Origin: an uncultured archaeon
GTDB taxonomy: Archaea; Thermoplasmatota; Penumbrarchaeia; JASLWR01
DNA length: 64,000 bases
Assembly: GCA_964342815.1 (NCBI GenBank)
Contig: CAYFHS010000019.1
Location: 10,285-74,284 of the forward strand
Direction: 5' to 3'
The notes beneath the pieces are model-generated. The model was not told the DNA's origin, searched no databases, and was given only the letters and a program-made list of their open reading frames with translations. The translations under genes and the position numbers were made by a program. Position 1 is the first letter of the stretch. Each line of letters opens with the position of its first letter. This document shows, one piece after another, positions 22,023 to 52,871 of the stretch.

Positions 22023-22337
22023 ACTTGAGTTATCTACAGTTATGTATTTTTGATTTGTCGTTTTTTAGGCTTGTGCGAGTGATCGTTTCTCCAATAATCC
22101 ATAGAGGGCCTGCGAGCTCCAGCCAAACGCAGGCCGGGTCTAAAAAATAGTTACACATAAAATAAATTCAAATCCTGATTACCTACGATTCCGAGCAGAC
22201 TCTGGGGGTGAGGCGTCTTACAGCACACCTGCTGGAAGATACAGGGCCGTTTGCGGAGCAAATGGACCAGTATGAGCCGGCGCAGGAATCGGGTGGGGGC
22301 TTGGGATGGCTATTCCTCCGCTTCACATAACGAAGTA

Positions 22338-23258
22338 TTATTTTTCCTCCCGGACGAGTCGGAAACCTATGATAATGAACACGGCGTCGGGGGAGTCACC
22401 GTTCCTCCGAGATGAAAAGGAAAATTTAACATCATTTTGGTTCCAGTCACTACCACGAAAAACCCGATTAGAACCCGATGTTGGTCCCTGCGGATCGTTA
22501 TTAGTCGAGTTCTCATAATAATATTTATCATACCAATCCTGGCACCACTCGCATACGTTACCATGCATATCATACAGACCCCAGTCATTAGGTAACTTTT
22601 CACCAACTGGGTGTGTTTTACCTTTTGAATTTAGACCATACCATGCATACATATCTATTTTTTCTTCATCATCCCCAAAGCTATAGTCACTCTCTCTCCC
22701 TGCACGGCAACAGTATTCCCATTCCGCCTCTGTTGGTAATCGATAAGTATAGTTAGTATCAAGCTTGTTCAGCCTTGAACTGAACAATTGGCAGTCATTC
22801 CAGGAAACCGAATAAATTGGATGATTATCGCCAATTCCATATTCAAAATCGTTATATGGATTTAAATCCCATTTCCCCATAACCTCTTCCCATTGAGACT
22901 GTGTTACCTCGCAACTTAGCATTTGAAAACCTTTGGAAATCGTTACTTGATGTGCCGGTTTTTCATATGAATAACCTTTTGAATTACCCATGATGAAAGT
23001 ACCTGGTGATATATCAACCCAGTTGAAATCGTCTGGGAATCGAGGCGTATGGGAAGGTTCTTTTGGAAAAAGAAATAGATATCCACCAATCCAAACAGCG
23101 ATCAACACAAATATGACTATATGCCTTCTGACAAACACCTTTTTACCTCTTTTCTTATGTTGAGCTAGTTTATCCTCCCCATTTTCCCTTTCAGGCTCCG
23201 GTTTTGCACCTGGTGATAAGGATTCCTCTGGACAATTAGAAGGGATTTCATTAGCCAT
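22338..23258 (-). CDS. membrane-anchored formylglycine-generating enzyme (FGE/SUMF1) family protein
   Basis: A cytoplasmic N-terminus plus TM (IVIFVLIAVWIGGYLFLF) is followed by an FGE-sulfatase signature (RLPTEAEWEYCCRAG, THPVGEKLPNDWGLYDMHGNVCEWCQDWY, RVFRGSDW). Confidence 0.85.
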   Translation of the reverse strand: MANEIPSNCPEESLSPGAKPEPERENGEDKLAQHKKRGKKVFVRRHIVIFVLIAVWIGGYLFLFPKEPSHTPRFPDDFNWVDISPGTFIMGNSKGYSYEKPAHQVTISKGFQMLSCEVTQSQWEEVMGKWDLNPYNDFEYGIGDNHPIYSVSWNDCQLFSSRLNKLDTNYTYRLPTEAEWEYCCRAGRESDYSFGDDEEKIDMYAWYGLNSKGKTHPVGEKLPNDWGLYDMHGNVCEWCQDWYDKYYYENSTNNDPQGPTSGSNRVFRGSDWNQNDVKFSFSSRRNGDSPDAVFIIIGFRLVREEK

Positions 23259-23356
23259 AGATACAAATATGTGTTATACATATAAAAAGTTGTTCGAAAG
23301 TTTGTATATTCCAGTCATATCCGGTTAATACATTGAAGAAAGGAGGCGGATTTGAT

Positions 23357-23391
23357 CCCCAAAATTAAGAAGAAAGGGGGCTTACCCCCTT
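23357..23391 (-). terminator. hairpin plus T-rich tract downstream of thiDN
   Basis: On the minus strand the sequence reads AAGGGGG-TAAG-CCCCCTT followed by TCTTCTTAATTTT. It lies about 130 nt downstream of the thiDN stop. Confidence 0.4.
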
Positions 23392-23437
23392 GGTCGGTAC
23401 CGACCTTATGCAATATTCTAAATATTATTTTTATGTC

Positions 23438-23479
23438 GGGCCTGCGTTTCTTACGTCGCAGGCCCTCTTTTGTTTTTTT
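23438..23479 (+). terminator. intrinsic-terminator-like hairpin with a T-run (plus-strand orientation)
   Basis: GGGCCTGCG-N10-CGCAGGCCC is followed by TCTTTTGTTTTTTT. No annotated plus-strand gene lies upstream. The stem is shared with a second hairpin at 22103-22135. Confidence 0.4.
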
Positions 23480-28275: not shown

Positions 28276-28561
28276 GGGCTGGCTCCGTGTTTGGGATTAT
28301 TAATGTTCATTATCTTTTTGTCTTTATCCGCAGGAAACAGCAGAATACCCCTGTTTTTAAACGAGGGATGAATGCTCCTCCGGTCGTTTCCGAGGATGAT
28401 TCGAAAGATGTGCATCTTTCTTCATCCTCGGCTTGTGAGCCTGCGGATGCAGTTGCATCTTGATGCAACGGAGTGATAACGGGCAAATGTGGGTTGTTCA
28501 TTAAATTTCGTGGTACATTTATAAAAGGATTCTCTCACTTCATCATATAAGGTCCTTCTGG

Positions 28562-36027: not shown

Positions 36028-37005
36028 TCAGGGTAATTCAATCATAACCTTTATGCAAATATAATCGAAATATATGACAGGTGTTGAAACGAGTCCACCA
36101 TGATTTTCATACCTTAAATCAATGTCTTCGATATTTATTGTATGCAAATCAAGTCTTTCGGAAATGTCAATCCTTACTTCAATCTCGTTTTCAGTGGAAT
36201 TAAACGAATATCCCGTATCAATAATAGAATCAGAATATATTATTTTTAGTGTATTCAAATTTGAATATGAAGGATCAGTTTTATATTTTATTTGTATTGT
36301 AAGTCCTTCTATCTTACCAGAGAAGGAATCATTGCCAAAATCCGTTACTTGAAGAATATGAGGGCCTAAACCCCCCCCTCCGACATAATAATATATATCA
36401 TCATCTTCAATCAATCTTTGTTCATTTTCTGGGGTGAAATAATAAACACCTATGTTAATCGATTCAGAGTCTAATACTTTTATCAAATCGCTACAAATCT
36501 TATTCAAATTTTGATATCCCTTCTGAATATCGTTATTTCCTTCGATCCATACTCGTGTATACTCCTCTTCGACATCTACATGAAATTTATGACTATTGAA
36601 CTTTCCCTCGACAACCACATTTCCATTATCATCTATCATCTCGATGGGCCTATCAGCTATGCACATACAAAATAAATCCGGATCATTCCCCTTTTTTTCC
36701 AATAATCCTTTCACCAATGGGAACCAGATGTCATTTCCGATGGAACAATTGTAATCATTTTTTATTTCATATAATACTATTTCCGAAGTCCTGTTAAACA
36801 TTTTAGCTGTGATCTCAATAATATCAGTTTTAAAAATGATTGCGAAATCATAGGACATATCAGATGAGTAATTGTCATATTGAATATGGATTTCACCAGG
36901 ATTTGGTATGATTATATCCTCCTCCGACCAAAATACAGAAAACCCAACTATTAGCAGAGTGACGATAAGCAAAGAGGGCAGTAAAACCATTAACTTCTTA
37001 TTCAT
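36028..37005 (-). CDS. hypothetical N-terminally anchored protein
   Basis: 325-codon ORF in a very AT-rich segment with an N-terminal TM (LMVLLPSLLIVTLLIVGFSVFW). No family was recognised. Confidence 0.55.
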   Translation of the reverse strand: MNKKLMVLLPSLLIVTLLIVGFSVFWSEEDIIIPNPGEIHIQYDNYSSDMSYDFAIIFKTDIIEITAKMFNRTSEIVLYEIKNDYNCSIGNDIWFPLVKGLLEKKGNDPDLFCMCIADRPIEMIDDNGNVVVEGKFNSHKFHVDVEEEYTRVWIEGNNDIQKGYQNLNKICSDLIKVLDSESINIGVYYFTPENEQRLIEDDDIYYYVGGGGLGPHILQVTDFGNDSFSGKIEGLTIQIKYKTDPSYSNLNTLKIIYSDSIIDTGYSFNSTENEIEVRIDISERLDLHTINIEDIDLRYENHGGLVSTPVIYFDYICIKVMIELP

Positions 37006-37265: not shown

Positions 37266-37691
37266 TCAGGGTACGCAGATAGTTTTTACTTCGGGTTCTT
37301 TCCGGGGGCGGGCGCAATGTTCAGCAAACAGGTTAACGCCATGATAAACATACCACGCCCTGAACGAACACATTTTATCTTCAAGACAGATATCTTTCAA
37401 GATTTGATCTGCGCGCTTCCTGTGACCCTTATGATCCAGTGCGCTTAGACGCATTAATTGATACAAAGCGTCATGGACCAGAGACCCACGCATGAAGGTC
37501 TTTGTATCAAAGGTAGGTCCGCTAGGTCCATCCCATGCGTAACCCTTCTTGATAGTTAAAATCCCTTCGGCAGACAATGAGATAAATTCGAATTCTTTAT
37601 GTTCACTTGGCTTGATATCAATTTGAATGACATAATCTTTCATCAACTGATACTTGTAGTTCCCAAGTTCTCTGTAGCAAGCCTTGTCCAT
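37266..37691 (-). CDS. DUF1353-like protein
   Basis: The core KKGYAWDGPSGPTFDTKTFMRGSLVHDALYQLMR...RKRADQILKD resembles the DUF1353 pattern (G-[FY]-x-[WT]-D-G-x-S-x-P ... HD-x-x-Y) as I recall it. Confidence 0.55.
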   Translation of the reverse strand: MDKACYRELGNYKYQLMKDYVIQIDIKPSEHKEFEFISLSAEGILTIKKGYAWDGPSGPTFDTKTFMRGSLVHDALYQLMRLSALDHKGHRKRADQILKDICLEDKMCSFRAWYVYHGVNLFAEHCARPRKEPEVKTICVP

Positions 37692-37910: not shown

Positions 37911-40118
37911 TTATTTTATTACTCCGTGGTCAGATAACGTGAACCATACCTGGTTCCCATTCATCTTTTCCGAGTTGACGATGCCTTTTGTAGAAAGATT
38001 TCCAAGATGATAGTATACTGTTCGAATGGAGGTTCCGTATTCATCCGCGACCTCCTTTGCGGATGAGCCGGGTTTTTTCCTAATGATCTCTATAATCCGC
38101 CTTTCAGCAGGTGTTAGATTGAATGGGTTTTTCTGAGCATTTGTAGGATAAAAATACCTGAATTTTCCGCCATTCGTAGAGCTTATCATCTTTCCCTTGT
38201 CTAACTTCCCAAGGTGATATGTCAAAGTCCCCCTTGACATGTCCAACTCTCTCTTCATTTCCGAATAATGTTTTCCCGGATTATTCTCAATATATGTAAG
38301 GATGCGCTTTCTGGTCTTATTACCAAGTATTGCCCTGCCTTTTATCCTGCTATAGATAAAAAGTCCCCCGAGAACGAGAACAAAAAACAGACCCAAGTAC
38401 AACCCGATCTCCAATTTTTTGCCACTCTTTTCCTTTACCCATCTGGTCGAATCGCGAGGATAAGCGTCATTTTCATTGGCCACTCCGTCGCCATCCCAGT
38501 CGAGTGGGGTGGAGTTCGGGTCATTCGGGTCACTCCCTGCTTCCTTTTCTTCAGCATCGGTCCAACCATCACTGTCGGTATCATTTTGAACACCAGGCGG
38601 CTCGTTTTGATTTCCTTCGAGAACGGTAACGATAAGGTCATCCATGTCTTTGAGCCCTGTTGCATCCGTGACGGTGAGGGTAACGGTAAAGTTCCCCGTT
38701 TTTTCAAATTTGAATGAACTTTTTACACCACGAAGGGAACGAACATTCCCGCTATAGTAAAAAGACCATGTATAATTTACGATCCCAACATTATCATAAC
38801 TGTCATTTCCGTTAAAATAGGCGGTACCACCCTGAATAATGGTAACGTTGTGGCCCGCTCTTGCAATTGGAGGGGTGCTATCCGCCTCCAATACAGTGAC
38901 CATAAAGGTATCTGTGGCCTGGTTTCCAGCATTATCAAAAATAATCAGACTTATCGTAAAGTTTCCTGTTCTGGTGAACGTGTACTGCGCTGTAATACCA
39001 TACCGAAATTGTTTCCCCCCGTCATCCAGGGACCACGTATAGTTCGTCACACCCACGTTGTCCGAACTGCCGCTGCCGTCGAAGGTTACGGTACCCCCTT
39101 GTACCACAGTAAGGTTCACCCCTGCATATGCCAAGGGTTTTGTGATGTCCATTACCGTGACGACTATCGAATCGGTTCCCTGGTTTCCCGCCACATCAGT
39201 AACTTTCAAGGCAACCGGGAAGCTTCCGGCATTGAAGAAAGAATATCCGGGCGACACTCCGAAGAGGGTAACTAGCCCTTTATCGTTAAAGGTCCATGAA
39301 TAATTCACCAGTCCATTATTATCGGTACTGCCATTAGCTATGAGATGTACCCTGTCTTTCTGGTTGATCGTCCTGTCCGGCCCGGCATCTGCTACCGGGA
39401 GGATAATGTCATATCCGCATTTAGTGTAGTTTAGCTTGGGTGACTGTTCCTTATTTCCAGCAGTATCGTTTGCTATCGAATAAAACCTGTAATGGCCATT
39501 ACCGTCGGAGAAATTAAATTGAAACGTCCATGGTGAAGAATTTTTCGATCCATAAAGAGACCAATCCCCCCAGCTTTTATTATCGGGACTGAATCGATAC
39601 CTTAGAGCCACATCACCTACCGCGGCATTTCCGGGAACGGCGTTCACGGTAATATTCAGGGAGGGTGAGTTGGTCCAGTATGGATAAATAAAATTGGCCC
39701 AGGATCTCGGTCTGATAGCGTTATATCCACATTCCGCATCCTTGAAGGCCGGGGCGTCCTCCCGGTTACCCTGCGCATCATTGGCTACCGAATAAAATTC
39801 ATAATTACCGCTGCCGTTCGGAAAAATAAATTCGTAAGACCACGGCGGTAGAAAGTCTGTTGCAAAGAGTCTCCATTCACTCCATGTCGAGTTGTCAACA
39901 CTGAATCGGTACCAGAGTTCTACGTTTTTGATAATGCTAAGATTGTCCCTTGCCGTAACGGTAATCTCGAACGGAACAACTTCTCTCAAATAAGGGATGA
40001 TGGGATCAACCCATGAGCGAGGGGGTTCATTATCCTGAACAACATCTTTATGCGCATACTTCAATCCACTGTTGGAATAATAACTGACATGAGGGCTGTT
40101 CGAGAGGTCTAATGCCAA
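37911..40118 (-). CDS. C-terminal part of a membrane-tethered regulator: 2 Ig-like modules, 3 PKD domains, TSP3-like Ca-binding module, TM, two cytoplasmic wHTH domains
   Basis: The track start is TTG and there is no signal peptide. Its first residues continue the repeat of the upstream ORF. The PKD pattern is DAGPDRTINQKD...GSTDNNGLVNYSWTF, three times. The Ca-binding module is DTDSDGWTDAEEKEAGSDPNDPNSTPLDWDGDGVANENDAYPRD. The TM is IGLYLGLFFVLVLGGLFIY. The wHTH domains are KRILTYIENNPGKHYSEMKRELDMSRGTLTYHLGKLDKGKMI and ERRIIEIIRKKPGSSAKEVADEYGTSIRTVYYHLGNLSTKGIV. Confidence 0.8.
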   Translation of the reverse strand: MALDLSNSPHVSYYSNSGLKYAHKDVVQDNEPPRSWVDPIIPYLREVVPFEITVTARDNLSIIKNVELWYRFSVDNSTWSEWRLFATDFLPPWSYEFIFPNGSGNYEFYSVANDAQGNREDAPAFKDAECGYNAIRPRSWANFIYPYWTNSPSLNITVNAVPGNAAVGDVALRYRFSPDNKSWGDWSLYGSKNSSPWTFQFNFSDGNGHYRFYSIANDTAGNKEQSPKLNYTKCGYDIILPVADAGPDRTINQKDRVHLIANGSTDNNGLVNYSWTFNDKGLVTLFGVSPGYSFFNAGSFPVALKVTDVAGNQGTDSIVVTVMDITKPLAYAGVNLTVVQGGTVTFDGSGSSDNVGVTNYTWSLDDGGKQFRYGITAQYTFTRTGNFTISLIIFDNAGNQATDTFMVTVLEADSTPPIARAGHNVTIIQGGTAYFNGNDSYDNVGIVNYTWSFYYSGNVRSLRGVKSSFKFEKTGNFTVTLTVTDATGLKDMDDLIVTVLEGNQNEPPGVQNDTDSDGWTDAEEKEAGSDPNDPNSTPLDWDGDGVANENDAYPRDSTRWVKEKSGKKLEIGLYLGLFFVLVLGGLFIYSRIKGRAILGNKTRKRILTYIENNPGKHYSEMKRELDMSRGTLTYHLGKLDKGKMISSTNGGKFRYFYPTNAQKNPFNLTPAERRIIEIIRKKPGSSAKEVADEYGTSIRTVYYHLGNLSTKGIVNSEKMNGNQVWFTLSDHGVIK

Positions 40119-41990
40119 AGATATTATCTTTCAAACCCCTTGGAATCCACTATTTCCTTCTGCCATACGCTGCCGTTCCAGAAAGCATATTTCAAATAAT
40201 AATTGGGCCAGTAATCATAGTAAGCTATATGCGGCCGGTCGTTAGAGTCGACGGCAATGGAAGTATACTCTCCGACATAGCCATTTGAATCCACTGTCTC
40301 AATTATCCATGCACCACCGTTGTGGTGAGCGTATTTCAAGTCCCGGTTGGGAAGGCCGTCGTAATAACTGATATGAGGCCGATTGGCTGAATCCAATGAT
40401 AAGGAAGAGAACGCACCTACAATGCCTTGTGCATCCACGGTCTCTACAGACCATGAATTACCGTCGTAATAAGCATATTTCAGGTCATCATTATTGCCCC
40501 CATCCTGATAACTGATGTGGACATTATCGTTCTGGTCCACCGCAATCGAACTCCACATCCCAACCCGACTCTCGGAATCTACCGTCTCGTTATGCCAGGA
40601 CAAGCCATCCCAATATACATATTTCAGATCGCCTTCGGGCCATTCTCCCACACAGCAACTGAAATGGGGCCGGTCATTGGAATCCAACGCGATAGAGGTG
40701 GAATAATAGGTCTTTATACCCAAAGAAGTAATATTCCAATTATTTCCGTCGTAATAAGCATATTTCAAGTAACTATTCTCCCAATCACCGGTACAATAAA
40801 CGATATGGGGCCGGTCATTTGAATCTATAGCAATGACGCTGGTATTGTATGTATCACCTATGGAATCTACTGTATCCGTATGCCACTGGGCTCCATCATA
40901 ATAAGAATATTTCAGTTTGTCATCTGAACCATTGTAATAGGTGATATGGGGCCGGTTGCTTGAATCCATGGCAATGGAGGAAAACTCCCCATATCGATCG
41001 TCTATCGATAGAATGGTCCAATCGTTGGGAGGATTGTTGTATGCGTATTTTAGCCATGTATCCGGCCAATCGGAATCATCACTATAACAAATATGCACTT
41101 GGTCACTTTCATCTATGGCCAAAGAAAAAAATCCCAAAACCTCGGAATCCTCATCTACTGTCTCGATATTCCATACTCCCCCATCCCAGTATACATATTT
41201 CAGATAAAAATCGGGCCAGCGATCTAAATAAGCTATATGCGGTCGGTCATTAGAGTCAATGGCTAAAGAAGTATGACGATCAACATAACTATCGGAATCG
41301 ACCGTTTCATTATTCCAAACATTTCCATCGTAATATGTATATTTCAGATCATAGTCGGGCCAATACCTGAGATAACTGATATGCGGTCTGTCGTTGGAAT
41401 CAAGAGCGATGGAAGTATAAAACCCCACATTCATCCGCGGATCCGCAGTCTCGTTATGCCACGTATTCCCATCGAAGTAGGCATATCTCAGTTTGAAATA
41501 ATTCCAAACACCGGCACTATACGCTATATGCGGCCGATCGTTAGAATCCACAGCAATGGAATTATAACCTCCCACATCCCATTGGGTTTCAAGTGTTTCA
41601 TTTTGCCACGCTATACCATCCCAATGCGCATACATCAGGTTGCGATCAGGCCAATTACCGATACAATAACTTATATGAGGTTTGTCGTTCGAGTCCAATG
41701 AAAGTGAGGCTGAATCCACATAGATATCTAAAATAGTAATATTCCACGAATTATTGAAGTGTGCATATTTTAAGGATTGATTATACCATCCACCTGTGCA
41801 ATAAGTGATATGCGGCCGGTCATTCGTATCCAACGCGAGGGTTGTGCTATTGTATTTCAGGCCAACATTGTCCACAATTTCGATTTGCCACTGAGCTCCA
41901 TCGTTATAAGCATATTTCAATTTGGAATTTTGATGATCTAAATAACTGATATGCGGTCGACCATTTGAATCAAGAGCTATGGATGTATAA
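40040..41990 (-). repeat. 14 in-frame tandem repeats of about 141 nt (RPH...LKYAY...W units) spanning the junction of ORFs 40124..42202 and 37911..40118
   Basis: I counted 13 D(S/T)xDxPH(I/F)x(Y/C) cores in the upstream ORF. A 14th core (DLSNSPHVSYYSNSGLKYAH) lies at the start of the downstream ORF. Confidence 0.8.
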
Positions 41991-42202
41991 TCACTATAAG
42001 TATCTACCGTATTGATCGACCAGCCACTGGCCTTGACACTGCTTCTGAGGTTTTTTTCACGATTCTGACTGTCAGGATACTCTTTGATATTTGACGATTG
42101 ATCTTTTTCATTTCCAATGATTGGTTGGCCGATTCCAATAAAGATAAGGAGGAGAGCGATCAACAGCCCCCCGATTTGGGATTTTATTTTTATCATCTCC
42201 AT
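40124..42202 (-). CDS. N-terminal part of the same protein: signal peptide plus 13 tandem repeats of about 47 aa (beta-propeller-like)
   Basis: The signal/anchor is IGGLLIALLLIFIGIGQPIIG. Thirteen units of the form S(I/L)A(L/V)DSNDRPHI(S/A)Y........LKYAY.DG..W..E.VD....VG.. follow. The ORF stops in mid-repeat. Confidence 0.8.
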   Translation of the reverse strand: MEMIKIKSQIGGLLIALLLIFIGIGQPIIGNEKDQSSNIKEYPDSQNREKNLRSSVKASGWSINTVDTYSDYTSIALDSNGRPHISYLDHQNSKLKYAYNDGAQWQIEIVDNVGLKYNSTTLALDTNDRPHITYCTGGWYNQSLKYAHFNNSWNITILDIYVDSASLSLDSNDKPHISYCIGNWPDRNLMYAHWDGIAWQNETLETQWDVGGYNSIAVDSNDRPHIAYSAGVWNYFKLRYAYFDGNTWHNETADPRMNVGFYTSIALDSNDRPHISYLRYWPDYDLKYTYYDGNVWNNETVDSDSYVDRHTSLAIDSNDRPHIAYLDRWPDFYLKYVYWDGGVWNIETVDEDSEVLGFFSLAIDESDQVHICYSDDSDWPDTWLKYAYNNPPNDWTILSIDDRYGEFSSIAMDSSNRPHITYYNGSDDKLKYSYYDGAQWHTDTVDSIGDTYNTSVIAIDSNDRPHIVYCTGDWENSYLKYAYYDGNNWNITSLGIKTYYSTSIALDSNDRPHFSCCVGEWPEGDLKYVYWDGLSWHNETVDSESRVGMWSSIAVDQNDNVHISYQDGGNNDDLKYAYYDGNSWSVETVDAQGIVGAFSSLSLDSANRPHISYYDGLPNRDLKYAHHNGGAWIIETVDSNGYVGEYTSIAVDSNDRPHIAYYDYWPNYYLKYAFWNGSVWQKEIVDSKGFER

Positions 42203-42390
42203 TCCTCCTGGACACCTGTTTGGCGGGTGCCGACGTCAGTTGGATTATTTAATTTCTAAACCCTTTCTAATCTCTCTATGCAAATATTGTATATATATGA
42301 AAATTGGTCCAATCTTATCATTGGCAACTTTTTTGCTTCTGTCAATGTCCAATTTCATCGAAAGTTCGACTCCATTCACTTGAAAACGGT

Positions 42391-45078
42391 CTATTTCCTC
42401 CTTCGTATTATTGTAAAGAGTATCGCCATCATTGAAAAGAAAAAAATAATTCCGATCGACCACCACCATACCGCGGTATTCCTCGAAATCTTTAGCTTCC
42501 CCCTGTCGGGGTCGTCCGGGAATAAATCATCTTCATTAGAAATATTGTCGCCGTCCCTATCGGGATCAAGCGAATCGGGTATACCGTCTCCGTCCGAGTC
42601 CCGCGGGACCGAGAGCTTGTTCCGGGGATCCGTACCCACTTGAGTTTCGATGGTGTTCTTCCATCCGTCCCCGTCGATATCACTATCCATATAATCAAGA
42701 ATCCCATCATCATCTATATCTGTATAATACACAATAATCGCTAGGGTTGTATAATTCGTGGAGTTGTCATCATCCATAATGGAGAGATTTACATAATATA
42801 CTCCGGCATTTGGATAGGCATGCATCGGGTTTATTGCATAGCTAAAGGAATCGTCTCCAAAATTCCACGAATAATTTAGAACCTCGCCGTCCATATCATA
42901 AGAGTTTGAACTAAATTGTATTATCTCGTTTTCATATACTGCAAGATTATTGGCAGTGACATTGACTATCGGCGGTCGATTGAGTACCGTTATCAGCATT
43001 TTTGAATAAACCTTCGAGCCATCATCATCTTCAATTTTTAGATGTACCGTATAAACGCCATTATCGGAGTAGCTATGTACCGGATTTGGTGATGTGCTGA
43101 TATTTTCATCTCCGAAGTCCCAACTATATGTCATAGTTCCATCAAAGTCATTTGCATTTGCTTTAAATTCTATTGGAACATATGTGTAAACGATAATTTC
43201 ATTTGCCGTAGGCGAGACAGTAGGTGGTCGATTAAGTACAGTTATCGCTTGCGTGATCCAATCACTTTCAATGAACAGGTCTCGTACCTTTAGCTTTGTT
43301 TCATAAACCCCATCATCGGAATAGTTATGATTTACAATAGAATTGTTGATCCAGCTAGTCGTATTTCCGTCACCAAAGTCAAAATAATACTGTATCGGGC
43401 CATTATCAGTTGAGTTAGATGCGTTGAAATTAACTTTTTCCAGGGTATGTACTATTTGAGGATAGACCGTAAAAAGAGGAGTTGGGATTGCATTGACATT
43501 GATATTTAATACGAATACATTATTATCTTCATCGCTTTCATTAATATTGTTATCGCGATCCACCATAATTTCTAATTTATGTTCTCCTGCTACGGCTACC
43601 CATTGAAATGATATAAATTGTGAAGTATTTACATGCAGAAAATTTACCGTTGTCCTGTTGATGGTTTTATTATCCACTGCGAACTCAACCGGAATTTCCA
43701 TAGCATCCAAGCGGCCCAAATTCCGTACTGTTGTATTTATATACACTAGCTCATTCTCGGTTACATTATTGGGTGAGTGTGAGATACGATCAGGTTTAAG
43801 GTCCGGTTTGCGTGTCCGAACACCAAAGACATAAAGATGTTCTTTACCACCAATAATAACTTCTTTTCGAGAATCATCATCAACATTCCCGGTGGCTACA
43901 ACAGGGGTAAGATATGGATATTCGCCATAAAAAACGTCCAAGTCATATTCCCACAATATTTCAAAATTCGTTGCGTCAAAAATGTATATCTTCTCATTAC
44001 CGCTGCCATTGGTAATATTGCTTACAGTCCCAACGATAATTTCATTTTTAGTGTCATTATCCAGATCATCAACAACTAAATGGCCAGTGTGATATAAATT
44101 ATCACTTCGCCGTTCCAGGTCATGTGTCGACCCGTTTAACAGATAAATATATCCTCGTTGAGGGTAAACATCTACAACACTGATCAATATCCCGCCCGAA
44201 ATGGTCATACCCATACATCGGTCCCCGTAGAAATCTCCAGCCATATACAAAGGGTAGATCCATTCGGGTTCATGGCTTATACCATCAAAGACATATAAGG
44301 ATACACCGCAACCACTTGTTGCTGCAATAATCTCGCAAACACCATCGTTATCCACATCGGCAATCTCTATTTTTGCTGCGATCAGACCAAAACCACAAGG
44401 ATCAGTTCCCATACCCTCAAGATGTACTTCCTCTAAACTGGGACTCTTCCATTCGAGAGTGTGGTTAATAGCGTCGAATATATAGATATAACCCTCCTGA
44501 TCAGAGTATTCCCCATGCCCGGTAGCCAGGATGAGTTCTTTTGCACCGTCAGAATCAACATCGCCTACAGCAATATCATAAATGGGATCCAAGGATCCAT
44601 TTACGTTGTTACTATCGATCACCCATTTTTCCGTATAGCCAGTACCATTATACTCAAAACCACGTATCCAACCCGACCAATAGTAGACACCATAAATAAT
44701 AATTTCCGGAGTTCCATTGTCGTTTATGTCTTCTACTAAAATACCGCGACATTGCCGGTTACGTTGAGAGATGTACTTCCATTTCACACTACCGTTTATA
44801 CCATCCCAAACATAGATATATGAAACATCCTCTCGACGATTAAAGTCACCTGTAACTATGTCATTTATACCATCCTGATCTACATCGCCCAATGCTAAAT
44901 AACTAACATTTATCTTTTTCTGCCATTTCAATGCCGCATATTCCTCTAGGGCGCGTACCCGGTTTAACTCATAAGGTATTTCATCATTATCATCCGATCT
45001 TACGGTTTTAAAAGCAAACAGTTGGAGTAATATAATTAGGAGGCATAGGAATACTTTTCTGTTAGTTCCCATATTCAT
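42391..45078 (-). CDS. surface protein: FG-GAP/VCBS beta-propeller, CARDB, 3 PKD domains, TSP3-like Ca-binding module, C-terminal TM
   Basis: The signal peptide is VFLCLLIILLQLFAFKTVRS. FG-GAP Ca-loops are GDVDQDGINDIVTGDF, VGDVDSDGAKELILAT, IADVDNDGVCEIIAAT, VDDLDNDTKNEIIVGT and GNVDDDSRKEVIIGG. The CARDB region is KPDLKPDRI...VRNLGRLDA...ESDEDNN. The PKD pattern is FDFGDGNT.../WDFGDENI.../WNFGDDSF. The protein ends in a TM segment followed by RRRK. Confidence 0.9.
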   Translation of the reverse strand: MNMGTNRKVFLCLLIILLQLFAFKTVRSDDNDEIPYELNRVRALEEYAALKWQKKINVSYLALGDVDQDGINDIVTGDFNRREDVSYIYVWDGINGSVKWKYISQRNRQCRGILVEDINDNGTPEIIIYGVYYWSGWIRGFEYNGTGYTEKWVIDSNNVNGSLDPIYDIAVGDVDSDGAKELILATGHGEYSDQEGYIYIFDAINHTLEWKSPSLEEVHLEGMGTDPCGFGLIAAKIEIADVDNDGVCEIIAATSGCGVSLYVFDGISHEPEWIYPLYMAGDFYGDRCMGMTISGGILISVVDVYPQRGYIYLLNGSTHDLERRSDNLYHTGHLVVDDLDNDTKNEIIVGTVSNITNGSGNEKIYIFDATNFEILWEYDLDVFYGEYPYLTPVVATGNVDDDSRKEVIIGGKEHLYVFGVRTRKPDLKPDRISHSPNNVTENELVYINTTVRNLGRLDAMEIPVEFAVDNKTINRTTVNFLHVNTSQFISFQWVAVAGEHKLEIMVDRDNNINESDEDNNVFVLNINVNAIPTPLFTVYPQIVHTLEKVNFNASNSTDNGPIQYYFDFGDGNTTSWINNSIVNHNYSDDGVYETKLKVRDLFIESDWITQAITVLNRPPTVSPTANEIIVYTYVPIEFKANANDFDGTMTYSWDFGDENISTSPNPVHSYSDNGVYTVHLKIEDDDGSKVYSKMLITVLNRPPIVNVTANNLAVYENEIIQFSSNSYDMDGEVLNYSWNFGDDSFSYAINPMHAYPNAGVYYVNLSIMDDDNSTNYTTLAIIVYYTDIDDDGILDYMDSDIDGDGWKNTIETQVGTDPRNKLSVPRDSDGDGIPDSLDPDRDGDNISNEDDLFPDDPDRGKLKISRNTAVWWWSIGIIFFFSMMAILFTIIRRRK

Positions 45079-45156
45079 TTCTTTTACTCCTTTTATCCAT
45101 ATCGAATTATACTTCAGTTATATTGTAATAAGATTTTGTTCTTTCTCTAGTACCGT

Positions 45157-48100
45157 TTATTCCTCTCTTCCAACCCTCCCGAGTTCTTCCTCCACACAAT
45201 CCAAATTATCCTCCTCACCTATCCTCTCTCTCCTTTTCGTAACCAACACAACTCCCAAAACTATCCCAAGCACCAATACCAAAATCCCAACTCCCACGAG
45301 CCACCACATCCCGCTATTTCCTCCTTTCATATTTTCCGATCCTTCCCACCGCTCCCTGTCATCCGGATAAGCGTCGTCCACGTTCGCCACTCCATCTCCG
45401 TCCCTATCGGGATCAAGCGAATCGGGTATGCCATCAGCGTCCGAGTCCCGCGGGACCGAAAGATTACTCAGAGGATTCGTGCCCACTTGCGATTCGACGG
45501 AATTATTCCAGCCGTCGCCGTCCCAATCTATGGGTGTGGAGAGTGGGTCGTAGGGATCACTGCCCTGTTCAAGTTCATAAGTGTCGTTGTAGGTGTCGTT
45601 GTCGGAATCAGCATCAGGAAATGGATTAATTTCACTTTCAACCATAATAACAATAGAATCCGTTACGGTAATGCCGTTATCCACAATAATCGACAAAGTT
45701 ACAGTATAGTTTCCAGGACTTACAAATACATGGATAGGATTCGACTCAAGGCTCGTATTCCCATCTCCAAAATTCCAGAAATACTGGACATCCATATTTC
45801 CGTTAGTATTGTTCAGTATGCCTTCGAAGGAAACGTTCAATGGGCTAACACCATGCGTTGGATTTGCTATAATTTCTACAATTGGTGTATTATTGGGAGA
45901 TTCCCTTGCTACGGATATCGCCATCTCGGCCTTACCAAAATCTCCATCGTCATCGGTAATGTTCAACGATACAAAATATGTTCCTGGTACTGAATAAACA
46001 TGTGATGGATTTTGCTGGTGACTCGTATTTCCATCTCCAAAGGACCAATTCCAGGAGACAATTGTACCGTCCGGATCAATGGACCCTGTGCTGTTGAACT
46101 CGACTATCTCGTCAATATCCGGGTGAATTGGTGTGAAAGAAATATTAATGATTGGAGGAACATTCAGAACCGCTATTGATTTTGTTGTATTATTTCCCCA
46201 TCCCTCATTATCACGTACCGCTAGGGTCACATTATATTCTCCGTCATCATTGAATAAATGCACCGGGTTCTGATCATAGGATATATTTTCGTCCCCAAAA
46301 TTCCAGGTCCAATTTACAATAGAATTTGTATCATTTGCATCGGGGTCTACGGAAGTATCTAAAAATTGAATTTCATCCATATCGGTAGGATCTATCGGTA
46401 GGTATGAAAAATCAGCCATAGGAGTGACATTTACCACTTCAATCTCTCTTGTTAACTTGACAGATAAACCATCATTATCCGTGACCACCAGTTGTACTGC
46501 GTAAATGCCTTCATCAGAATACTGATGGATCGGATTTTGAAAAGCGGAGGTATTTCCATCCCCGAAATTCCAGAACCATGATTCTATGGATCCATCAAAA
46601 TCTGACGAAGTATCGCTGAATCTCACATTTTTCATGGCAATTAGTATGTGGGGATCATAAGAAAAGTTGATGGCGGGCGGAATTAGCGGCCAGACTACAT
46701 GGATATCAACGGGGATCATTAATGGATACTCATCTCTGTTATATCGACCGTCACTAATATTATACGGCGTATCTCCTATACCATCACTTTCCGGTTCATC
46801 TTGATTCACACCGGAGAATGTGTCATTACCGGAATAATTACTCCAGTAATTACCTCCCGATGGATAAGTATCATTCCAGTAATTCTTGCCACCAAAGTCG
46901 CCTGCCTGCCCATTCTCATCCAAATTGCCGATTATATTATTGTGATGTATGATATTGTTTTCACCACCGCCAATGCATCTCTCCAATAAAATTGCCAAGC
47001 CATCATTCCGGGATATATTATTGTATTTAATAAGATTATCAGAAGAAGTGATCATATAGATCCCACGTCCATTATATGAGATATTATTATATAAAACAAC
47101 ATTTTCACTATGATGAGCACCGCCGAGATGGGTGAAGTGTATACCATCGTATGTATTAAAAATAATTGAATTATACTGAATTATGTTGTTATCACTATTT
47201 TCTTTACCATCCATTTGACTGCCAAATATAATGCCAAATCGGTTCTTTATAATTGTATTGTTTTCAATACAGCCGTTTGTTACATTAATGAAGACTATGC
47301 CATCACTGACATTATTTCCACTATGGATGCAGCAGTTTTTAATTACAAAATATTTGCTAACGTTTCGAATTTCAATTCCCGCTTGGTTGGATGCATTAAT
47401 AACCCAATCCTTAATTATGTAGGGATCATTCGGTGTACCTCTGCCTGAGCTAACGCCATTTTCCAATGTGAAATTTTCATGGCCGACGATCCTTATCGGC
47501 TCATGGGCCCAATATATAGGGACATTGATTTGAGCATCGTTTTCAGGTACATTTGGGTCGGTACCTTTAACATATTCTTCAAGATTGGTCTCTCCATCGT
47601 TGTCGGGGTCTTCATTTGCATCGCTGGAATCATTGGGATTCAATCCATGGTCGATTTCCCAATTATTAGGCATCCCGTCCCAATCCAGGTCCTCTGGAAG
47701 AAATGGCTCAATTCGTTCACTCCAATTCGTATCACAATAATCTATTGAATCAGAAGGATTGATCAGCGGATAATAATCGACATCATGCCAAGGGAGGTTT
47801 GTATCACCGATGCCATCTTCGTTTTCATCAGTTCCATTGTAATCAGACCAATGGTTACCATGCCCTGCTGTATCATTCCATGTGTTAGACGATTGTGGCC
47901 ATCCGATCTTTTTATTATAAGTACAGTTAATAAAGTTATTAAAAAAAGCTTTATTACCCGCAGATTGTATTATTAACGGATCAGTATTGTTAATGAAATT
48001 ACATTCAATGACAGAATTGTTCCTCGGACCAGGGATGCAATCCAAATCAGGGTCTTCATCCATTACGATCCCCTTACAAGAATAGAAGTTACATCTATAA

Positions 48101-48591
48101 AATAAAATATTCGACGTACCTCGAAAAAGAAAATTCATATTAAAGAAGTCACAATAGTTATAATTTAAAGTCCCAGGTGAGATATTTCCGCTTAGGTCCT
48201 TACTATAAGAAAAAAGAAAAATTCTATTGCTTTGCGTTCCATTTAGTACTATTGAGTCCGGCCGTCCGAATCCAAGGCTCGAATGAGGATAAAAAATTAT
48301 TACTGTTCCCGGTTCAATCGTTAGAGTAGAATTGTTTTTTATTCCGATAAAATCAATAATGTAATATGGACTATTTTCCTTTGTCCAGGTCGTGTTTTCG
48401 ATTATTTTTTCAAAAACAATCGTTCCCGGATCACCACGGGGGACCATGGATTCTGTGTTGGGAATCGGTTTGAAAAAGGATGGGTCATTTTCCGATTTTT
48501 TCGTTATATCAAAGGTTGAAATGAGATTGAATACCAGAATGACAGTTATGAGTATGTTTAGACCGTGTCTCTGCATTTCGCCTCTTGTCAT
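45157..48591 (-). CDS. surface protein: two right-handed beta-helix (NosD/PbH1-like) regions, 5 PKD domains, TSP3-like Ca-binding module, TM
   Basis: PbH1-like periodicity is seen (NCCIHSGNNVSDGIVFINVTNGCIENNTIIKNRFGIIFG...YNNISYNGRGIYM...YNNISRNDGLAIL). Five W(N/S)FGDGNTS PKD cores are present. DSDADGIPDSLDPDRDGDGVANVDDAYPDD is followed by the TM segment WWLVGVGILVLVLGIVLGVVLV. Confidence 0.9.
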   Translation of the reverse strand: MTRGEMQRHGLNILITVILVFNLISTFDITKKSENDPSFFKPIPNTESMVPRGDPGTIVFEKIIENTTWTKENSPYYIIDFIGIKNNSTLTIEPGTVIIFYPHSSLGFGRPDSIVLNGTQSNRIFLFSYSKDLSGNISPGTLNYNYCDFFNMNFLFRGTSNILFYRCNFYSCKGIVMDEDPDLDCIPGPRNNSVIECNFINNTDPLIIQSAGNKAFFNNFINCTYNKKIGWPQSSNTWNDTAGHGNHWSDYNGTDENEDGIGDTNLPWHDVDYYPLINPSDSIDYCDTNWSERIEPFLPEDLDWDGMPNNWEIDHGLNPNDSSDANEDPDNDGETNLEEYVKGTDPNVPENDAQINVPIYWAHEPIRIVGHENFTLENGVSSGRGTPNDPYIIKDWVINASNQAGIEIRNVSKYFVIKNCCIHSGNNVSDGIVFINVTNGCIENNTIIKNRFGIIFGSQMDGKENSDNNIIQYNSIIFNTYDGIHFTHLGGAHHSENVVLYNNISYNGRGIYMITSSDNLIKYNNISRNDGLAILLERCIGGGENNIIHHNNIIGNLDENGQAGDFGGKNYWNDTYPSGGNYWSNYSGNDTFSGVNQDEPESDGIGDTPYNISDGRYNRDEYPLMIPVDIHVVWPLIPPAINFSYDPHILIAMKNVRFSDTSSDFDGSIESWFWNFGDGNTSAFQNPIHQYSDEGIYAVQLVVTDNDGLSVKLTREIEVVNVTPMADFSYLPIDPTDMDEIQFLDTSVDPDANDTNSIVNWTWNFGDENISYDQNPVHLFNDDGEYNVTLAVRDNEGWGNNTTKSIAVLNVPPIINISFTPIHPDIDEIVEFNSTGSIDPDGTIVSWNWSFGDGNTSHQQNPSHVYSVPGTYFVSLNITDDDGDFGKAEMAISVARESPNNTPIVEIIANPTHGVSPLNVSFEGILNNTNGNMDVQYFWNFGDGNTSLESNPIHVFVSPGNYTVTLSIIVDNGITVTDSIVIMVESEINPFPDADSDNDTYNDTYELEQGSDPYDPLSTPIDWDGDGWNNSVESQVGTNPLSNLSVPRDSDADGIPDSLDPDRDGDGVANVDDAYPDDRERWEGSENMKGGNSGMWWLVGVGILVLVLGIVLGVVLVTKRRERIGEEDNLDCVEEELGRVGREE

Positions 48592-50702: not shown

Positions 50703-51145
50703 TCCTTTGGCAGTCGTACTATGGTCAGCCAGAACTCTTCAATGGACTTTACCACCTTGATGAACTGGTTCAGGTCCACAGGTTTTGTCACGTAACAATT
50801 GGCTCCAAGGCCGTAACTCTTCAAGATATCGATCTCCGCGTTCGAGGTAGTCAATACAACCACGGGTATACGCTTCAAATTATTATCACCCTTTATCTCG
50901 GCCAGAACCTGCCGCCCGTCCATTTTTGGCAGGTTCAGATCCAGCAAGATAAGGTCGGGACGAGGAGCTTTGTCATACTTGCCTTCACACCGGAGAAATG
51001 TCATTGCCTCTTCACCGTCTCTCACCACACAGAGATTGATCCGCATCTTTCCTTCTTCCAGCGCTTCGATGGTAAGACGCACGTCCCCGGGATTGTCTTC
51101 CACCAGCAGTATCTCGACTATCCTGCCGTAATCATCAACGTTCAT
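50699..51145 (-). CDS. single-domain response regulator (CheY/Rcp1-like)
   Basis: [18 protein letters not shown]...[18 protein letters not shown]...VVVLTTS...KPVD. The likely start MNVDDYG at 51145 overlaps the end of the kinase gene by 11 nt. The track start at 51199 is less likely. Confidence 0.85.
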
Positions 51146-52871
51146 ACTCGTTCGCCTCTTTCCTTTTAGGTATGGTGAAGTAGAAGGTGGAGCCCTCACC
51201 CGCTTTCGAAATCACCCATATGCGTCCACCGTGCCGTTCCACGATTTTCTTGCAGACCGCGAGGCCGATACCTGTTCCTGGATATTCCGCTTTTGTGTGT
51301 AGGCGTTGGAATACCTGAAATATCCTATCGGCGTGCTGGGTTTCGATCCCTATGCCATTGTCCCGGACGGTGAAACAGTACGCCTCTTCATTCTCCTTTA
51401 CCGAAATGTGTACGCTGGGACTCTCCTTCCCCCGGAACTTTATCGCGTTTCCAATGAGGTTCAGGAATAGCTGGGCAAGCTGGGTGTCATCGGCCATAAC
51501 AGTGGGCAACGTACCCCGGGTTACAACGGCACCGTTCTCCTTAATTGACATTTCCAGATCGCTCAAAGTTTGATCCACAACCTTTGAACAGTCAGTTGCT
51601 AAAAACGGCTTTTTACGCGTTCCTACCCGGGAGTATGTCAATAGGTCATTGATAAGCCTTTTCATTCTCGTAGCCCCGTCCACGGCGTAAGCTATGAATT
51701 CGAGGGCATTCTTGTCCAGTTTGTTCTTGTATCGACGCTCCAGCAACTGAACGTAACTGGCCACCATTCGCAGAGGTTCCTGAAGATCGTGAGATGCGAT
51801 ATAGGCAAACTGCTCTAACTCCTTATTAGACCGGCTCAACTCCTCGGTTCGCGCTTTGATCTCGTCCTCGAGGTGGCTCCGGTGCTCCATCAATTCTTCT
51901 TCGGCCCGCACCCGTTCACCTATCTCGAGTTGCAATTGGACATTGGCTTCCGTCAACTGGGCGGTACGCTCCTTCACCATATCCTTCAGTGCATCCCGAT
52001 ACATCTTCAGTTCCGCTTCAGCCTGCTCCCGCTCGTCGATCCCGCTTTGCATTTCCGCCTGAATTCGCTTTGATGCTTTATACGATATAAAAAGAATGAC
52101 TAAACCCGATATTATGAAAATTATGGATAGTATTTCTGGATAGCCGAAGTAATTATTTTTTTCCTTTTCAGGGAGGTCCATGGGAAGAGTGGGACAATCG
52201 AGCATGGTGAATATCTCTACCGCCGCGTAAGTGGAATACATATCCCTGCCGTACTGACCTGGACCCGCTTTCTGATCCATGATGAAGTGGAGAATGGGTA
52301 AGCGCTCCAGTGCCTTTGTTTGTCCGGAATTCTCAAAAAAACGCACCGCGGCATATGTACCGTGAAGCGAAACATTCCCATCAATTTCATGAATATATCC
52401 CGCAAAAGCACCTGTTCCCGAGCGCTGATATTTTTTTATTATATAATCTGTGATTTTTTCCAGTGACATTTTCCCCTCCACAAAATCCAATTTCTCGGTT
52501 TCGTTATTACCACCGAGCCACCACAGGGCATTAAAGGCATTATATGTTCCGTAGATCTCGGAGGCTTTTTCTCCAGGTTTGTCCGAGTATCCGCCATCAA
52601 CAGAAGAAAGACTGCTGTCGACGAAACTTGCCACGTTGATAATATAGCTTGACTCGAAGTTCTTACCCTGGTGCCCGTTTATTATTCCCAATGCATTTAT
52701 GGCTTTAGAGGTGCATTTCATGGTTGAAGTCATTCCATCTTCCGTGTATTCCTCATCCCAGAAACCCCCGTCGGGATTCCTGTGAGCATTGATGAAATTT
52801 TCGATGCGGGTCAGGTTCAGTTCCGGCTGGTCCAATCCACCAAGCATTTCAAGTGACTTCAATGCCTCCAA
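51135..52871 (-). CDS. sensor histidine kinase: extracytoplasmic alpha/alpha-repeat-like sensor part, TM, coiled coil, HisKA, HATPase_c; the N-terminus appears truncated
   Basis: The track start is TTG. The TM is [18 protein letters not shown]. The H-box is [16 protein letters not shown], the N-box is [10 protein letters not shown]1 is RDNGIGI and G2 is GTGIGLAVC. The ORF has no N-terminal TM or signal, although about 230 residues lie before the only TM. Confidence 0.85.

What the first reader, a model, noticed from the sequence alone, without database searches (positions are those of the whole stretch)
40116..40133. Frame break in mid-repeat joins ORFs 40124..42202 and 37911..40118 (1-nt loss in an A/T run)
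The upstream ORF ends ...EIVDSKGFER-stop in the middle of its 47-aa repeat. The downstream ORF starts at a TTG and has no signal peptide. Its first residues (ALDLSNSPHVSYYSNSGLKYAH) form the next repeat unit. On the minus strand the junction reads ttt gaa aga TAA tat ctt tgg. The downstream frame is open only from 40130, because a TGA occupies 40131-40133. Both frames are therefore open only within 40127-40130. Adding one A to the AAA run (plus-strand TTT at 40129-40131) gives GFE-K-IISLALDLSNSPHVSY. This restores the repeat register (compare GYVGEYTSIAVDSNDRPHIAY) and brings the repeat count to 14, consistent with two 7-bladed propellers. The result is a single ORF of about 1430 aa.
Basis: seen in the sequence. 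Interest (0 to 1): 0.6.

Follow-up and report, generated by a model that had tools for sequence, protein, structure and literature searches.

The report
Polymorphic frameshift splitting an archaeal surface-sensor gene
A single missing base splits one large membrane-protein gene of an uncultivated marine archaeon into two reading frames, and public sequencing data show the broken and intact versions coexisting in the sea, so this is an ordinary natural loss-of-function variant, not an assembly mistake or a new mechanism.

Summary
Minus-strand ORFs 40124..42202 (692 aa) and 37911..40118 (open from 40130) are two pieces of one gene. ORF A ends at TAA in the middle of its 14th ~48-aa repeat, and ORF B continues that repeat (29 bits against the repeat HMM; the best of 1000 shuffles scored 10.8). 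Three relatives encode one uninterrupted protein of 1421-1431 aa, and one sits in the same gene neighbourhood. Contigs from independent public marine runs carry one extra base at 40124/40125, inside the TAA, and read GFE-RYISLALD, which matches an ortholog's SRYVSLGLD. Both alleles occur in the public data: intact in X1, X5/X8 and X6/X10; broken in X2, X12, X6/X10 and the window. X6 shows a roughly 1:1 assembly bubble. Almost nothing else differs across the 52 kb compared. An assembly error is therefore unlikely. The best reading is a segregating, probably null, allele in a marine Thermoplasmatota population. The intact protein has a signal/anchor, two seven-bladed beta-propellers, Ig/PKD domains, a transmembrane helix and two cytoplasmic winged-helix domains. 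That makes it a transmembrane-transcription-regulator-type protein. Interest is low to moderate.

The parts
40124..42202 (-). ORF A (692 aa), the N-terminal fragment of the broken gene. It has a hydrophobic signal/anchor (residues ~3-31, about 42110-42196), then propeller units 1-13 (residues 63-683, about 40154-42016) and the first 9 residues of unit 14. It ends GFER-TAA.
40117..40131 (.). The site of the 1-nt deletion. The + strand reads AAAGATATTATCTTT, a 7+1+7 inverted repeat. The intact allele in public runs has one extra base between 40124 and 40125, which makes a 16-bp perfect palindrome AAAGATAT|ATATCTTT with a (TA)4 core.
40124..40126 (-). The TAA stop created by the deletion. In the intact allele these bases are part of TAT ATA (Tyr-Ile).
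40131..40133 (-). A TGA in the ORF B frame that bounds the upstream end of that open frame.
37911..40130 (-). The ORF B open frame (739 codons; the listed ORF starts at TTG 40118), the C-terminal fragment of the broken gene. It has no signal peptide. The first in-frame methionine in the translation lies well downstream.
40044..40130 (-). The remainder of propeller unit 14 (ISLALDLSNSPHVSYYSNSGLKYAH).
39426..40028 (-). Two Ig-like domains (weak Big_13 / DUF4625 matches). Boundaries are approximate.
38616..39398 (-). Three PKD domains (PKD_4 126 bits, three stretches). Boundaries are approximate.
38517..38582 (-). A TSP3-type acidic, calcium-binding-like repeat (22 bits, below the Pfam cut-off of 25).
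38343..38417 (-). A transmembrane helix (LEIGLYLGLFFVLVLGGLFIY) followed by a basic stretch SRIKGR..KTRKR, which places the C-terminus in the cytoplasm by the positive-inside rule.
   Evidence: Kyte-Doolittle window; topology is inferred
37935..38333 (-). Two tandem winged-helix DNA-binding domains (HTH_HVO_0163_N 64 bits, HTH_24 55 bits, HTH_20 54 bits; ArsR/SmtB-like).

Best explanation
The window carries a real, naturally occurring one-nucleotide-deletion allele of a single ~1430-aa gene from an uncultivated marine Thermoplasmatota archaeon.

The intact gene encodes a type-I membrane protein. From the N-terminus it has a signal/anchor, two seven-bladed beta-propellers (14 repeats), two Ig-like domains, three PKD domains, an acidic TSP3-like linker, one transmembrane helix and two cytoplasmic winged-helix DNA-binding domains. 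By architecture it is a one-component transmembrane transcription regulator with a large, probably ligand- or glycan-binding, extracellular head.

The deletion removes one base from a (TA)4 tract at the centre of a 16-bp palindrome. It turns TAT-ATA into TAA and cuts the protein just before the first three strands of blade 14. The exported fragment therefore cannot close its second propeller. The rest (stalk, membrane helix, DNA-binding tail) is left without a signal peptide or a proper start codon. The allele is most likely a null.

Both alleles coexist in the same wild population on an otherwise almost identical background, so the mutation is recent and segregating.

Shown: the break, the common origin, the intact allele, the coexistence and the fold. 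Inferred: loss of function, topology and regulator function.
For: One gene: orthologs P0001 (1431 aa, 82% identity, 100% coverage), P0002 (1428 aa, 73%) and P0003 (1421 aa, 41%) are uninterrupted. P0001's locus is followed by 141-aa and 326-aa genes, as in the window.

Intact allele: the contig of run X1 (12.5x) is identical to the window over 38564-42580 except for one extra base behind 40124. The same extra base appears in X5 and X8 (3.2x). It restores one 1430-aa ORF reading GFERYISLALD, matching P0002's SRYVSLGLD codon for codon.

Broken allele is real: contigs of X2 (7x, same sample as X1) and X12 (3.4x) match the window. X6/X10 show a bubble of 60-nt (2.5x) and 61-nt (2.3x) unitigs over 40095-40154, with flanking contigs ending at 40124 and starting at 40125. 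The X3 contig starts exactly at 40125.

Clean background: over 12001-64000 the X1 and X2 contigs differ from the window at few other places: a SNP at 19447, a T7/T6 run at 52156, a repeat region at 22.1-23.5 kb and a 38-nt insert at 28473. The assembly is therefore not indel-prone.

Fold: the AlphaFold model of the ortholog region has pLDDT 89. Half of it superposes on complete seven-bladed PLL/PHL lectins with target-normalised TM-score 0.72-0.73 and rmsd 3.7 A over 329 columns (PMC6943638 for 'seven-bladed'). The two halves are 50% identical and collinear, and P0004's halves are 96% identical.

Tail: a transmembrane helix plus wHTH domains above Pfam cut-offs.

Taxon: the ThiDN neighbour gene is 81% identical to that of a Thermoplasmatota MAG.
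Against: Only assembled contigs (Logan), not raw reads, could be inspected. Allele frequencies, strand balance and base qualities at the site are therefore unknown.

That leaves about three independent observations per allele.

The second X1/X2 difference, at 52156, is also a 1-nt deletion in X2, in a T7 run. This leaves some room for a library-specific deletion artefact.

No RNA run holds the gene, so expression of either form is untested. Loss of function is inferred from domain logic only.
Confidence: 0.72

Rival explanations
1. Sequencing or assembly artefact. The organism has only the intact gene, and the shorter form arises from a context-dependent deletion error at the AT-rich palindrome, which some assemblies pick up, including this window.
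For: The site is a low-complexity, palindromic (TA)4 tract. X1 and X2 come from one sample yet give different consensus forms. X2 also carries a 1-nt deletion in a T7 run at 52156 that X1, X4 and the window lack.
Against: The shorter form is the sole assembled form in X2 (7x) and X12 (3.4x), and it is present at about half the depth in X6/X10. These come from different samples and studies. From general knowledge, Illumina indel errors do not approach 50-100% at an 8-bp AT tract. Elsewhere in 52 kb the assemblies agree base for base, apart from the T7/T6 indel at 52156, a 38-nt insert at 28473 and the 22.1-23.5 kb repeat region.
Confidence: 0.12
2. Functional gene fission. The two pieces now act as two proteins: an exported 13-blade propeller protein and a separate membrane-anchored regulator.
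For: A TTG lies 6 nt after the TAA, so termination-reinitiation is conceivable. ORF A keeps its signal/anchor and one complete propeller.
Against: The break falls inside blade 14, not at a domain boundary. ORF B has no signal peptide, so its ~560-aa extracellular part could not be exported. No ortholog is split. The flanks are identical to the intact allele, so no adaptation such as a new start site or new signal peptide has occurred.
Confidence: 0.07
3. A regulated switch. Either a programmed -1 ribosomal frameshift makes full-length protein from the short allele, or the site is a reversible phase-variation (ON/OFF) locus.
For: Both ON and OFF forms coexist in several samples on a nearly clonal background. 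The indel lies exactly at the centre of one of only 12 palindromes with arms of 7 or more in 64 kb, which suggests a site-specific mutational mechanism. The gene encodes a surface protein, the usual target of phase variation.
Against: There is no X XXY YYZ slippery heptamer in the zero frame (aag ggg ttt gaa aga taa). Orthologs are unshifted. The change is 1 nt within a dinucleotide tract, not a repeat-unit change, and the tract is short. A simple three-haplotype history (19447 T/intact, G/intact, T/broken) needs only one mutation event.
Confidence: 0.06

Closest known systems
Transmembrane transcription regulators (TTRs: one-component regulators with a DNA-binding domain and a transmembrane region; Demey et al. 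2023, PMC10269533)
   Same: The protein has a single-pass membrane helix joined to predicted DNA-binding domains (two wHTH, ArsR/SmtB-like) and a large extracytoplasmic domain, in one polypeptide. That paper reports such proteins as widespread in archaea, about 4 per genome.
   Different: The best-studied members I know of (ToxR/CadC type, from my own knowledge) have an N-terminal cytoplasmic DNA-binding domain and a C-terminal periplasmic sensor. Here the order is reversed, with the exported head first and the wHTH tail last. The head is unusually large: a double propeller plus five Ig/PKD domains. DNA binding and signalling are untested.
[quoted passage not shown]
   Same: These are the best structural matches. 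One half of the modelled 14-repeat region superposes on the whole ~340-aa lectin (target-normalised TM-score 0.72-0.73, rmsd 3.7 A, 329 columns). Blades are ~47 aa with four strands.
   Different: Sequence identity is only 12-14%. The repeat motif (SIALDSNDRPHISY...LKYA..DG..W..ETVD) is different, and Pfam finds only partial BNR_4 and DUF7253 matches. Here there are two propellers in tandem on a membrane stalk. Sugar binding is untested.
Frameshift pseudogenes and segregating loss-of-function alleles in microbial populations
   Same: A single-base deletion creates a premature stop inside a conserved domain. Intact orthologs and an intact allele exist.
   Different: Here both alleles are documented together in environmental samples of an uncultivated archaeon, on a background with almost no other variation.
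Paralog in the same window, ORF 58324..62193 (-), 1289 aa
   Same: It has the same tail: PKD domains, then HTH_HVO_0163_N plus a second HTH at the C-terminus.
   Different: Its head is DUF2341 plus a laminin-G/concanavalin-like domain instead of a double propeller, and it is intact.

Membership tests
Transmembrane transcription regulator (TTR, as defined in PMC10269533) | A predicted DNA-binding domain | tested here: met
   HTH_HVO_0163_N 64.2 bits (cut-off 31), HTH_24 54.6 (21.9) and HTH_20 53.9 (27), each with two stretches. The nearest solved relative is 5duk, 'putative DNA binding protein', E 3e-6.
Transmembrane transcription regulator (TTR, as defined in PMC10269533) | At least one predicted transmembrane region in the same polypeptide | tested here: met
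   Hydrophobic 19-mers with Kyte-Doolittle score above 1.8 at residues 1263-1287 of the joined protein, directly before the wHTH domains. In the window's allele this holds only for fragment ORF B.
Transmembrane transcription regulator (TTR, as defined in PMC10269533) | Binds DNA and regulates transcription while membrane-bound | not testable with these tools
   Needs ChIP/DAP-seq, localisation and reporter assays.
Seven-bladed beta-propeller fold (PLL/PHL-like) | Seven four-stranded blades closing a ring of ~330-340 residues | tested here: met
   Model of the ortholog P0001 region, pLDDT 89.3, with ~4 strands per 47-aa unit. Target-normalised TM-score 0.72-0.73 and rmsd 3.7 A over 329 columns to 6rfz/6rgg. 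The test was done on the 82%-identical ortholog, not on the window's own broken product.
PLL/PHL lectin family (homology and function) | Sequence-level family membership and fucose/O-methyl-sugar binding sites | tested here: not met
   12-14% identity in structural alignments and no Pfam or NCBIfam family shared. Binding itself is not testable here.
Programmed -1 ribosomal frameshift | Slippery heptamer X XXY YYZ in the zero frame at the frame junction | tested here: not met
   Zero-frame codons are aag ggg ttt gaa aga taa; no heptamer of that form lies before the stop.
Programmed -1 ribosomal frameshift | Frame break conserved in orthologs | tested here: not met
   P0001, P0002 and P0003 are single uninterrupted ORFs.
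Phase-variable contingency locus (slipped-strand mispairing) | A homopolymer or tandem-repeat tract that changes by whole repeat units | tested here: not met
   The tract is (TA)4 and the change is 1 nt, not 2. There is no homopolymer at the actual indel position.
Phase-variable contingency locus (slipped-strand mispairing) | In-frame and out-of-frame forms coexisting within one population | tested here: met
   X1 versus X2 from the same sample, and the X6/X10 bubble.
Phase-variable contingency locus (slipped-strand mispairing) | Reversible, recurrent switching | not testable with these tools
   Needs haplotype-resolved reads or cultures.
Frameshift pseudogene / loss-of-function allele | Collinear intact homologs plus a premature stop inside a conserved domain | tested here: met

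The most novel reading that the evidence does not exclude
The 1-nt indel at the centre of the 16-bp palindrome could be a recurrent, reversible ON/OFF switch. Alternatively it could be a loss-of-function allele kept at intermediate frequency by selection, for instance from viruses or grazers that use the propeller head as a receptor. Either way it would control a surface sensor-regulator in a wild, uncultivated marine archaeal population. That would be a form of contingency locus not based on repeat-unit slippage, in a group where phase variation is essentially undescribed.
Probability: 0.08. Interest if true: 0.6.

Novelty: new member of a known kind. Interest (0 to 1): 0.28.

Why it matters
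For annotation: the two ORFs should be recorded as one frameshifted gene (a pseudogene allele) with its full architecture, not as two hypothetical proteins. The assembly should not be silently 'polished', because the broken form exists in nature.

For biology: the gene belongs to an uncharacterised archaeal family that joins a lectin-like double propeller to a membrane-tethered pair of DNA-binding domains. This family is a candidate route by which marine Thermoplasmatota sense particles or polysaccharides.

For population genomics: on an almost clonal background, two of the three single-site differences seen between the X1 and X2 contigs of one sample are 1-nt indels in signalling genes (this gene and a histidine kinase). 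That fits fast turnover of sensory and surface genes, but two cases prove nothing.

Tried and rejected
1. An exact-protein look-up of ORF A found no gene on record.

2. An exact-pattern scan for either allele (AATGCCAAAGATATN{0,1}TATCTTTCAAACCCCT) gave 0 hits in the JGI metagenome contigs and 0 in the GTDB species genomes. Allele counts could therefore come only from Logan contigs.

3. A search for close relatives of P0001 in GTDB genomes found none. The taxon was placed instead through the ThiDN neighbour gene.

4. No RNA runs hold the gene, so there is no expression test.

The corresponding region of the intact ortholog was used instead, first without an alignment (pLDDT 67) and then with 31 sequences (pLDDT 89).

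7. Programmed frameshifting was considered and rejected: there is no slippery site and the orthologs are unshifted.

8. A duplicated locus with one broken copy was considered and rejected: depth is flat across the gene and its flanks (12.1-12.5x in X1).

10. The literature search on HVO_0163 found only a proteomics list.
Full report
**What is in the sequence.** On the minus strand ORF A (40124..42202, 692 aa) ends ...VDSKGFER-TAA. ORF B is listed from TTG 40118 to 37911 (735 aa), and its frame is open back to 40130, just after a TGA at 40133-40131. ORF A begins with a hydrophobic signal/anchor. It then contains 13 complete units of 45-49 aa with the motif VDS.G.VG.YTSIALDSNDRPHISY....LKYAY.DG..W..ET, plus the first residues of a 14th. 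ORF B starts with ISLALDLSNSPHVSYYSNSGLKYAH, which is the rest of that unit. An HMM built only from the 13 ORF A units scores this N-terminus at 29.2 bits (E 3e-8); the best of 1000 shuffles reached 10.8 bits.

**One gene in relatives.** A search with the joined protein found three full-length collinear relatives with no interruption: P0001 (1431 aa, 82% identity, 100% coverage), P0002 (1428 aa, 73%) and P0003 (1421 aa, 41%). The P0001 locus is followed by 141-aa and 326-aa genes, like the window's 37266..37691 and 36028..37005 ORFs, so it is the syntenic ortholog. The P0002 contig carries archaeal ribosomal protein genes L31e and S19e. The window's ThiD-ThiN gene is 81% identical to that of a 'Thermoplasmatota archaeon' MAG. 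All runs holding the sequence are marine or seawater metagenomes.

**Where the base is missing.** Public data show otherwise. The Logan contig of run X1 (4018 nt, depth 12.5) is identical to the window across the whole gene except for one extra base behind 40124. The + strand GATAT|TATC becomes GATAT[A]TATC. On the coding strand this turns aga TAA tat ctt into aga tat ata tct. The lost base therefore lies inside what is now the stop codon. The joined ORF is 1430 aa and reads ...VDSKGFERYISLALDLSNSPHVSY.... P0002 has SKVYSRYVSLGLD at this point, encoded aga tat gta tct, a codon-for-codon match to the intact allele. In the intact allele the site is the exact centre of a 16-bp perfect palindrome, AAAGATAT|ATATCTTT. 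The window allele is 7+1+7. Only 12 palindromes with arms of 7 or more exist in the 64 kb, against 7.5 expected.

**Both alleles are in the sea.**
- Intact form: X1 (12.5x), and X5 and X8 (3.2x; these two look like the same data).
- Broken form, as in the window: X2 (7x, same sample as X1) and X12 (3.4x).
- Both forms: X6 and X10 (again apparently the same reads) show a textbook unresolved bubble. Contigs end at 40124 and start at 40125, bridged by a 60-nt unitig at 2.5x and a 61-nt unitig at 2.3x.
- X3 has a contig starting exactly at 40125.
- X4, X7, X9, X11, X13 and X14 do not cover the site.

Depth is flat across the gene, so this is not a duplicated locus. Across 12001-64000 the X1 and X2 contigs differ from the window at only a few other places. 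These are a SNP at 19447 (X1 only), one T fewer in a T7 run at 52156 (X2 only), a repeat region at 22.1-23.5 kb and a 38-nt insertion at 28473/4. The assembly is thus accurate, and the population is nearly clonal with a few segregating sites. The window is a mosaic of X1-like and X2-like states. X5 carries 19447-T with the intact allele, X1 carries G with intact, and X2 and the window carry T with the broken allele. These three haplotypes need only one mutation each.

I conclude that the frameshift was not invented by the assembler. It most likely is a true, recently arisen allele. Only contigs were available, not reads. A context-specific deletion artefact therefore cannot be fully excluded, and I give it about 0.12.

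**What the gene encodes.** ORF B carries, in order:
- the end of unit 14;
- two weakly matching Ig-like domains;
- three PKD domains (126 bits);
- an acidic TSP3-like repeat (22 bits, below the Pfam cut-off);
- a hydrophobic helix followed by a basic stretch;
- two winged-helix domains (HTH_HVO_0163_N 64 bits, HTH_24 55 bits, ArsR/SmtB-like).

An AlphaFold2 model of the equivalent 696-residue region of the intact ortholog, made with a 31-sequence alignment, has mean pLDDT 89.3 and is all-beta, with four strands per unit. Its best PDB matches are the ~340-residue Photorhabdus PLL/PHL lectins. One half of the model covers the whole lectin at target-normalised TM-score 0.72-0.73 and rmsd 3.7 A over 329 columns. 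Those lectins are seven-bladed propellers (PMC6943638). The two halves of the repeat region align collinearly at 50% identity, unit similarity peaks at offset 7, and in homolog P0004 the two 7-unit halves are 96% identical.

Two seven-bladed propellers is therefore well supported. Units 7 and 14 both lack the final DG..W..ET strand, and each propeller is preceded by a W-x-I/L-x-x-V/I-D strand. This suggests 'Velcro' closure of the last blade by the first strand, which is an inference I could not verify from coordinates.

By the definition of Demey et al. (PMC10269533: a DNA-binding domain plus a transmembrane region), the intact protein is a transmembrane transcription regulator. It has an exported N-terminal head and a cytoplasmic C-terminal tail. 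A paralog with the same tail but a DUF2341/laminin-G head lies at 58324..62193.

**Consequence of the break.** ORF A would yield an exported or anchored protein with one complete propeller and a second one lacking three of the four strands of its last blade. ORF B has no signal peptide and no ATG near its start, and its ~560-residue extracellular part could not cross the membrane. Sensor and DNA-binding tail are uncoupled, and I infer a null allele.

Programmed -1 frameshifting is unlikely. There is no X XXY YYZ site before the stop, and orthologs are unshifted. Classical slipped-strand phase variation does not fit a 1-nt change in a (TA)4 tract. A palindrome-centred hotspot cannot be excluded, and it remains the most novel open reading (about 0.08).

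**Verdict.** The single-gene, 14-blade and 1430-aa interpretation is supported. The proposed repair site is wrong by about five bases, and the assembly-error reading is largely refuted. This is an ordinary kind of event, a segregating frameshift allele, in an uncharacterised but classifiable archaeal membrane regulator.

Noticed in passing
window 52156-52162 (inside ORF 51135..52871, minus strand): A second 1-nt indel polymorphism in the same sample. The X2 contig has T6 where the window, X1 and X4 have T7, and the X3 contig stops inside the run. The gene is a 578-aa histidine kinase (HisKA + HATPase_c), and the T6 form would frameshift it.
   Followed up: partly
window 19447 (ORF 19188..20912, plus strand, AMP-binding enzyme): A T>G SNP is fixed in the X1 contig (11.4x) but absent from X2, X5 and the window. 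It falls at a second codon position. Together with the indel it defines three haplotypes.
   Followed up: partly
window ~22100-23470 (around ORF 22338..23258, minus strand, 306 aa): Depth is doubled (~25x against 11x in X1). SNPs cluster at 22491-22690 with two alternative 130-nt unitigs, and X1, X2 and X3 show a joint '22144 <-> 23437 opposite strands'. This looks like a repeated, invertible or IS-like element.
   Followed up: no
window 28473/28474: The X1 and X2 contigs carry 38 extra bases here (ATAACGGGTAAGATCAGAAGAATCTTTGATTCTTCAGG) relative to the window. This may be a collapsed or skipped segment in the window assembly, or a structural variant.
   Followed up: no
window 58324..62193 (minus strand, 1289 aa): A paralogous architecture: DUF2341 + laminin-G/ConA-like + PKD domains, then HTH_HVO_0163_N and a second HTH at the C-terminus. 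This genome therefore has a family of head-stalk-membrane-wHTH proteins with interchangeable heads.
   Followed up: partly
window 42391..48591 (minus strand) and L001 1025-7834: The gene sits in a cluster of large surface proteins: FG-GAP/CARDB/PKD (895 aa) and NosD/beta-helix/PKD (1144 aa). The ortholog locus has NosD/beta-helix/PKD proteins upstream, so this is a conserved surface-protein island.
   Followed up: no
protein P0004 (homolog, 1175 aa): Its two 7-unit propeller halves are 95.8% identical over 336 columns. This is either a very recent tandem duplication of a whole seven-bladed propeller or an assembly repeat.
   Followed up: partly
window 40117-40131: The deletion lies at the exact centre of a 16-bp perfect palindrome (in the intact allele). 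The palindrome is not conserved in the orthologs (L001 has none; L003 has AGATATGTATCT with one mismatch).
   Followed up: partly
They are probably re-deposits or subsets of the same reads and should not be counted as independent.
   Followed up: no
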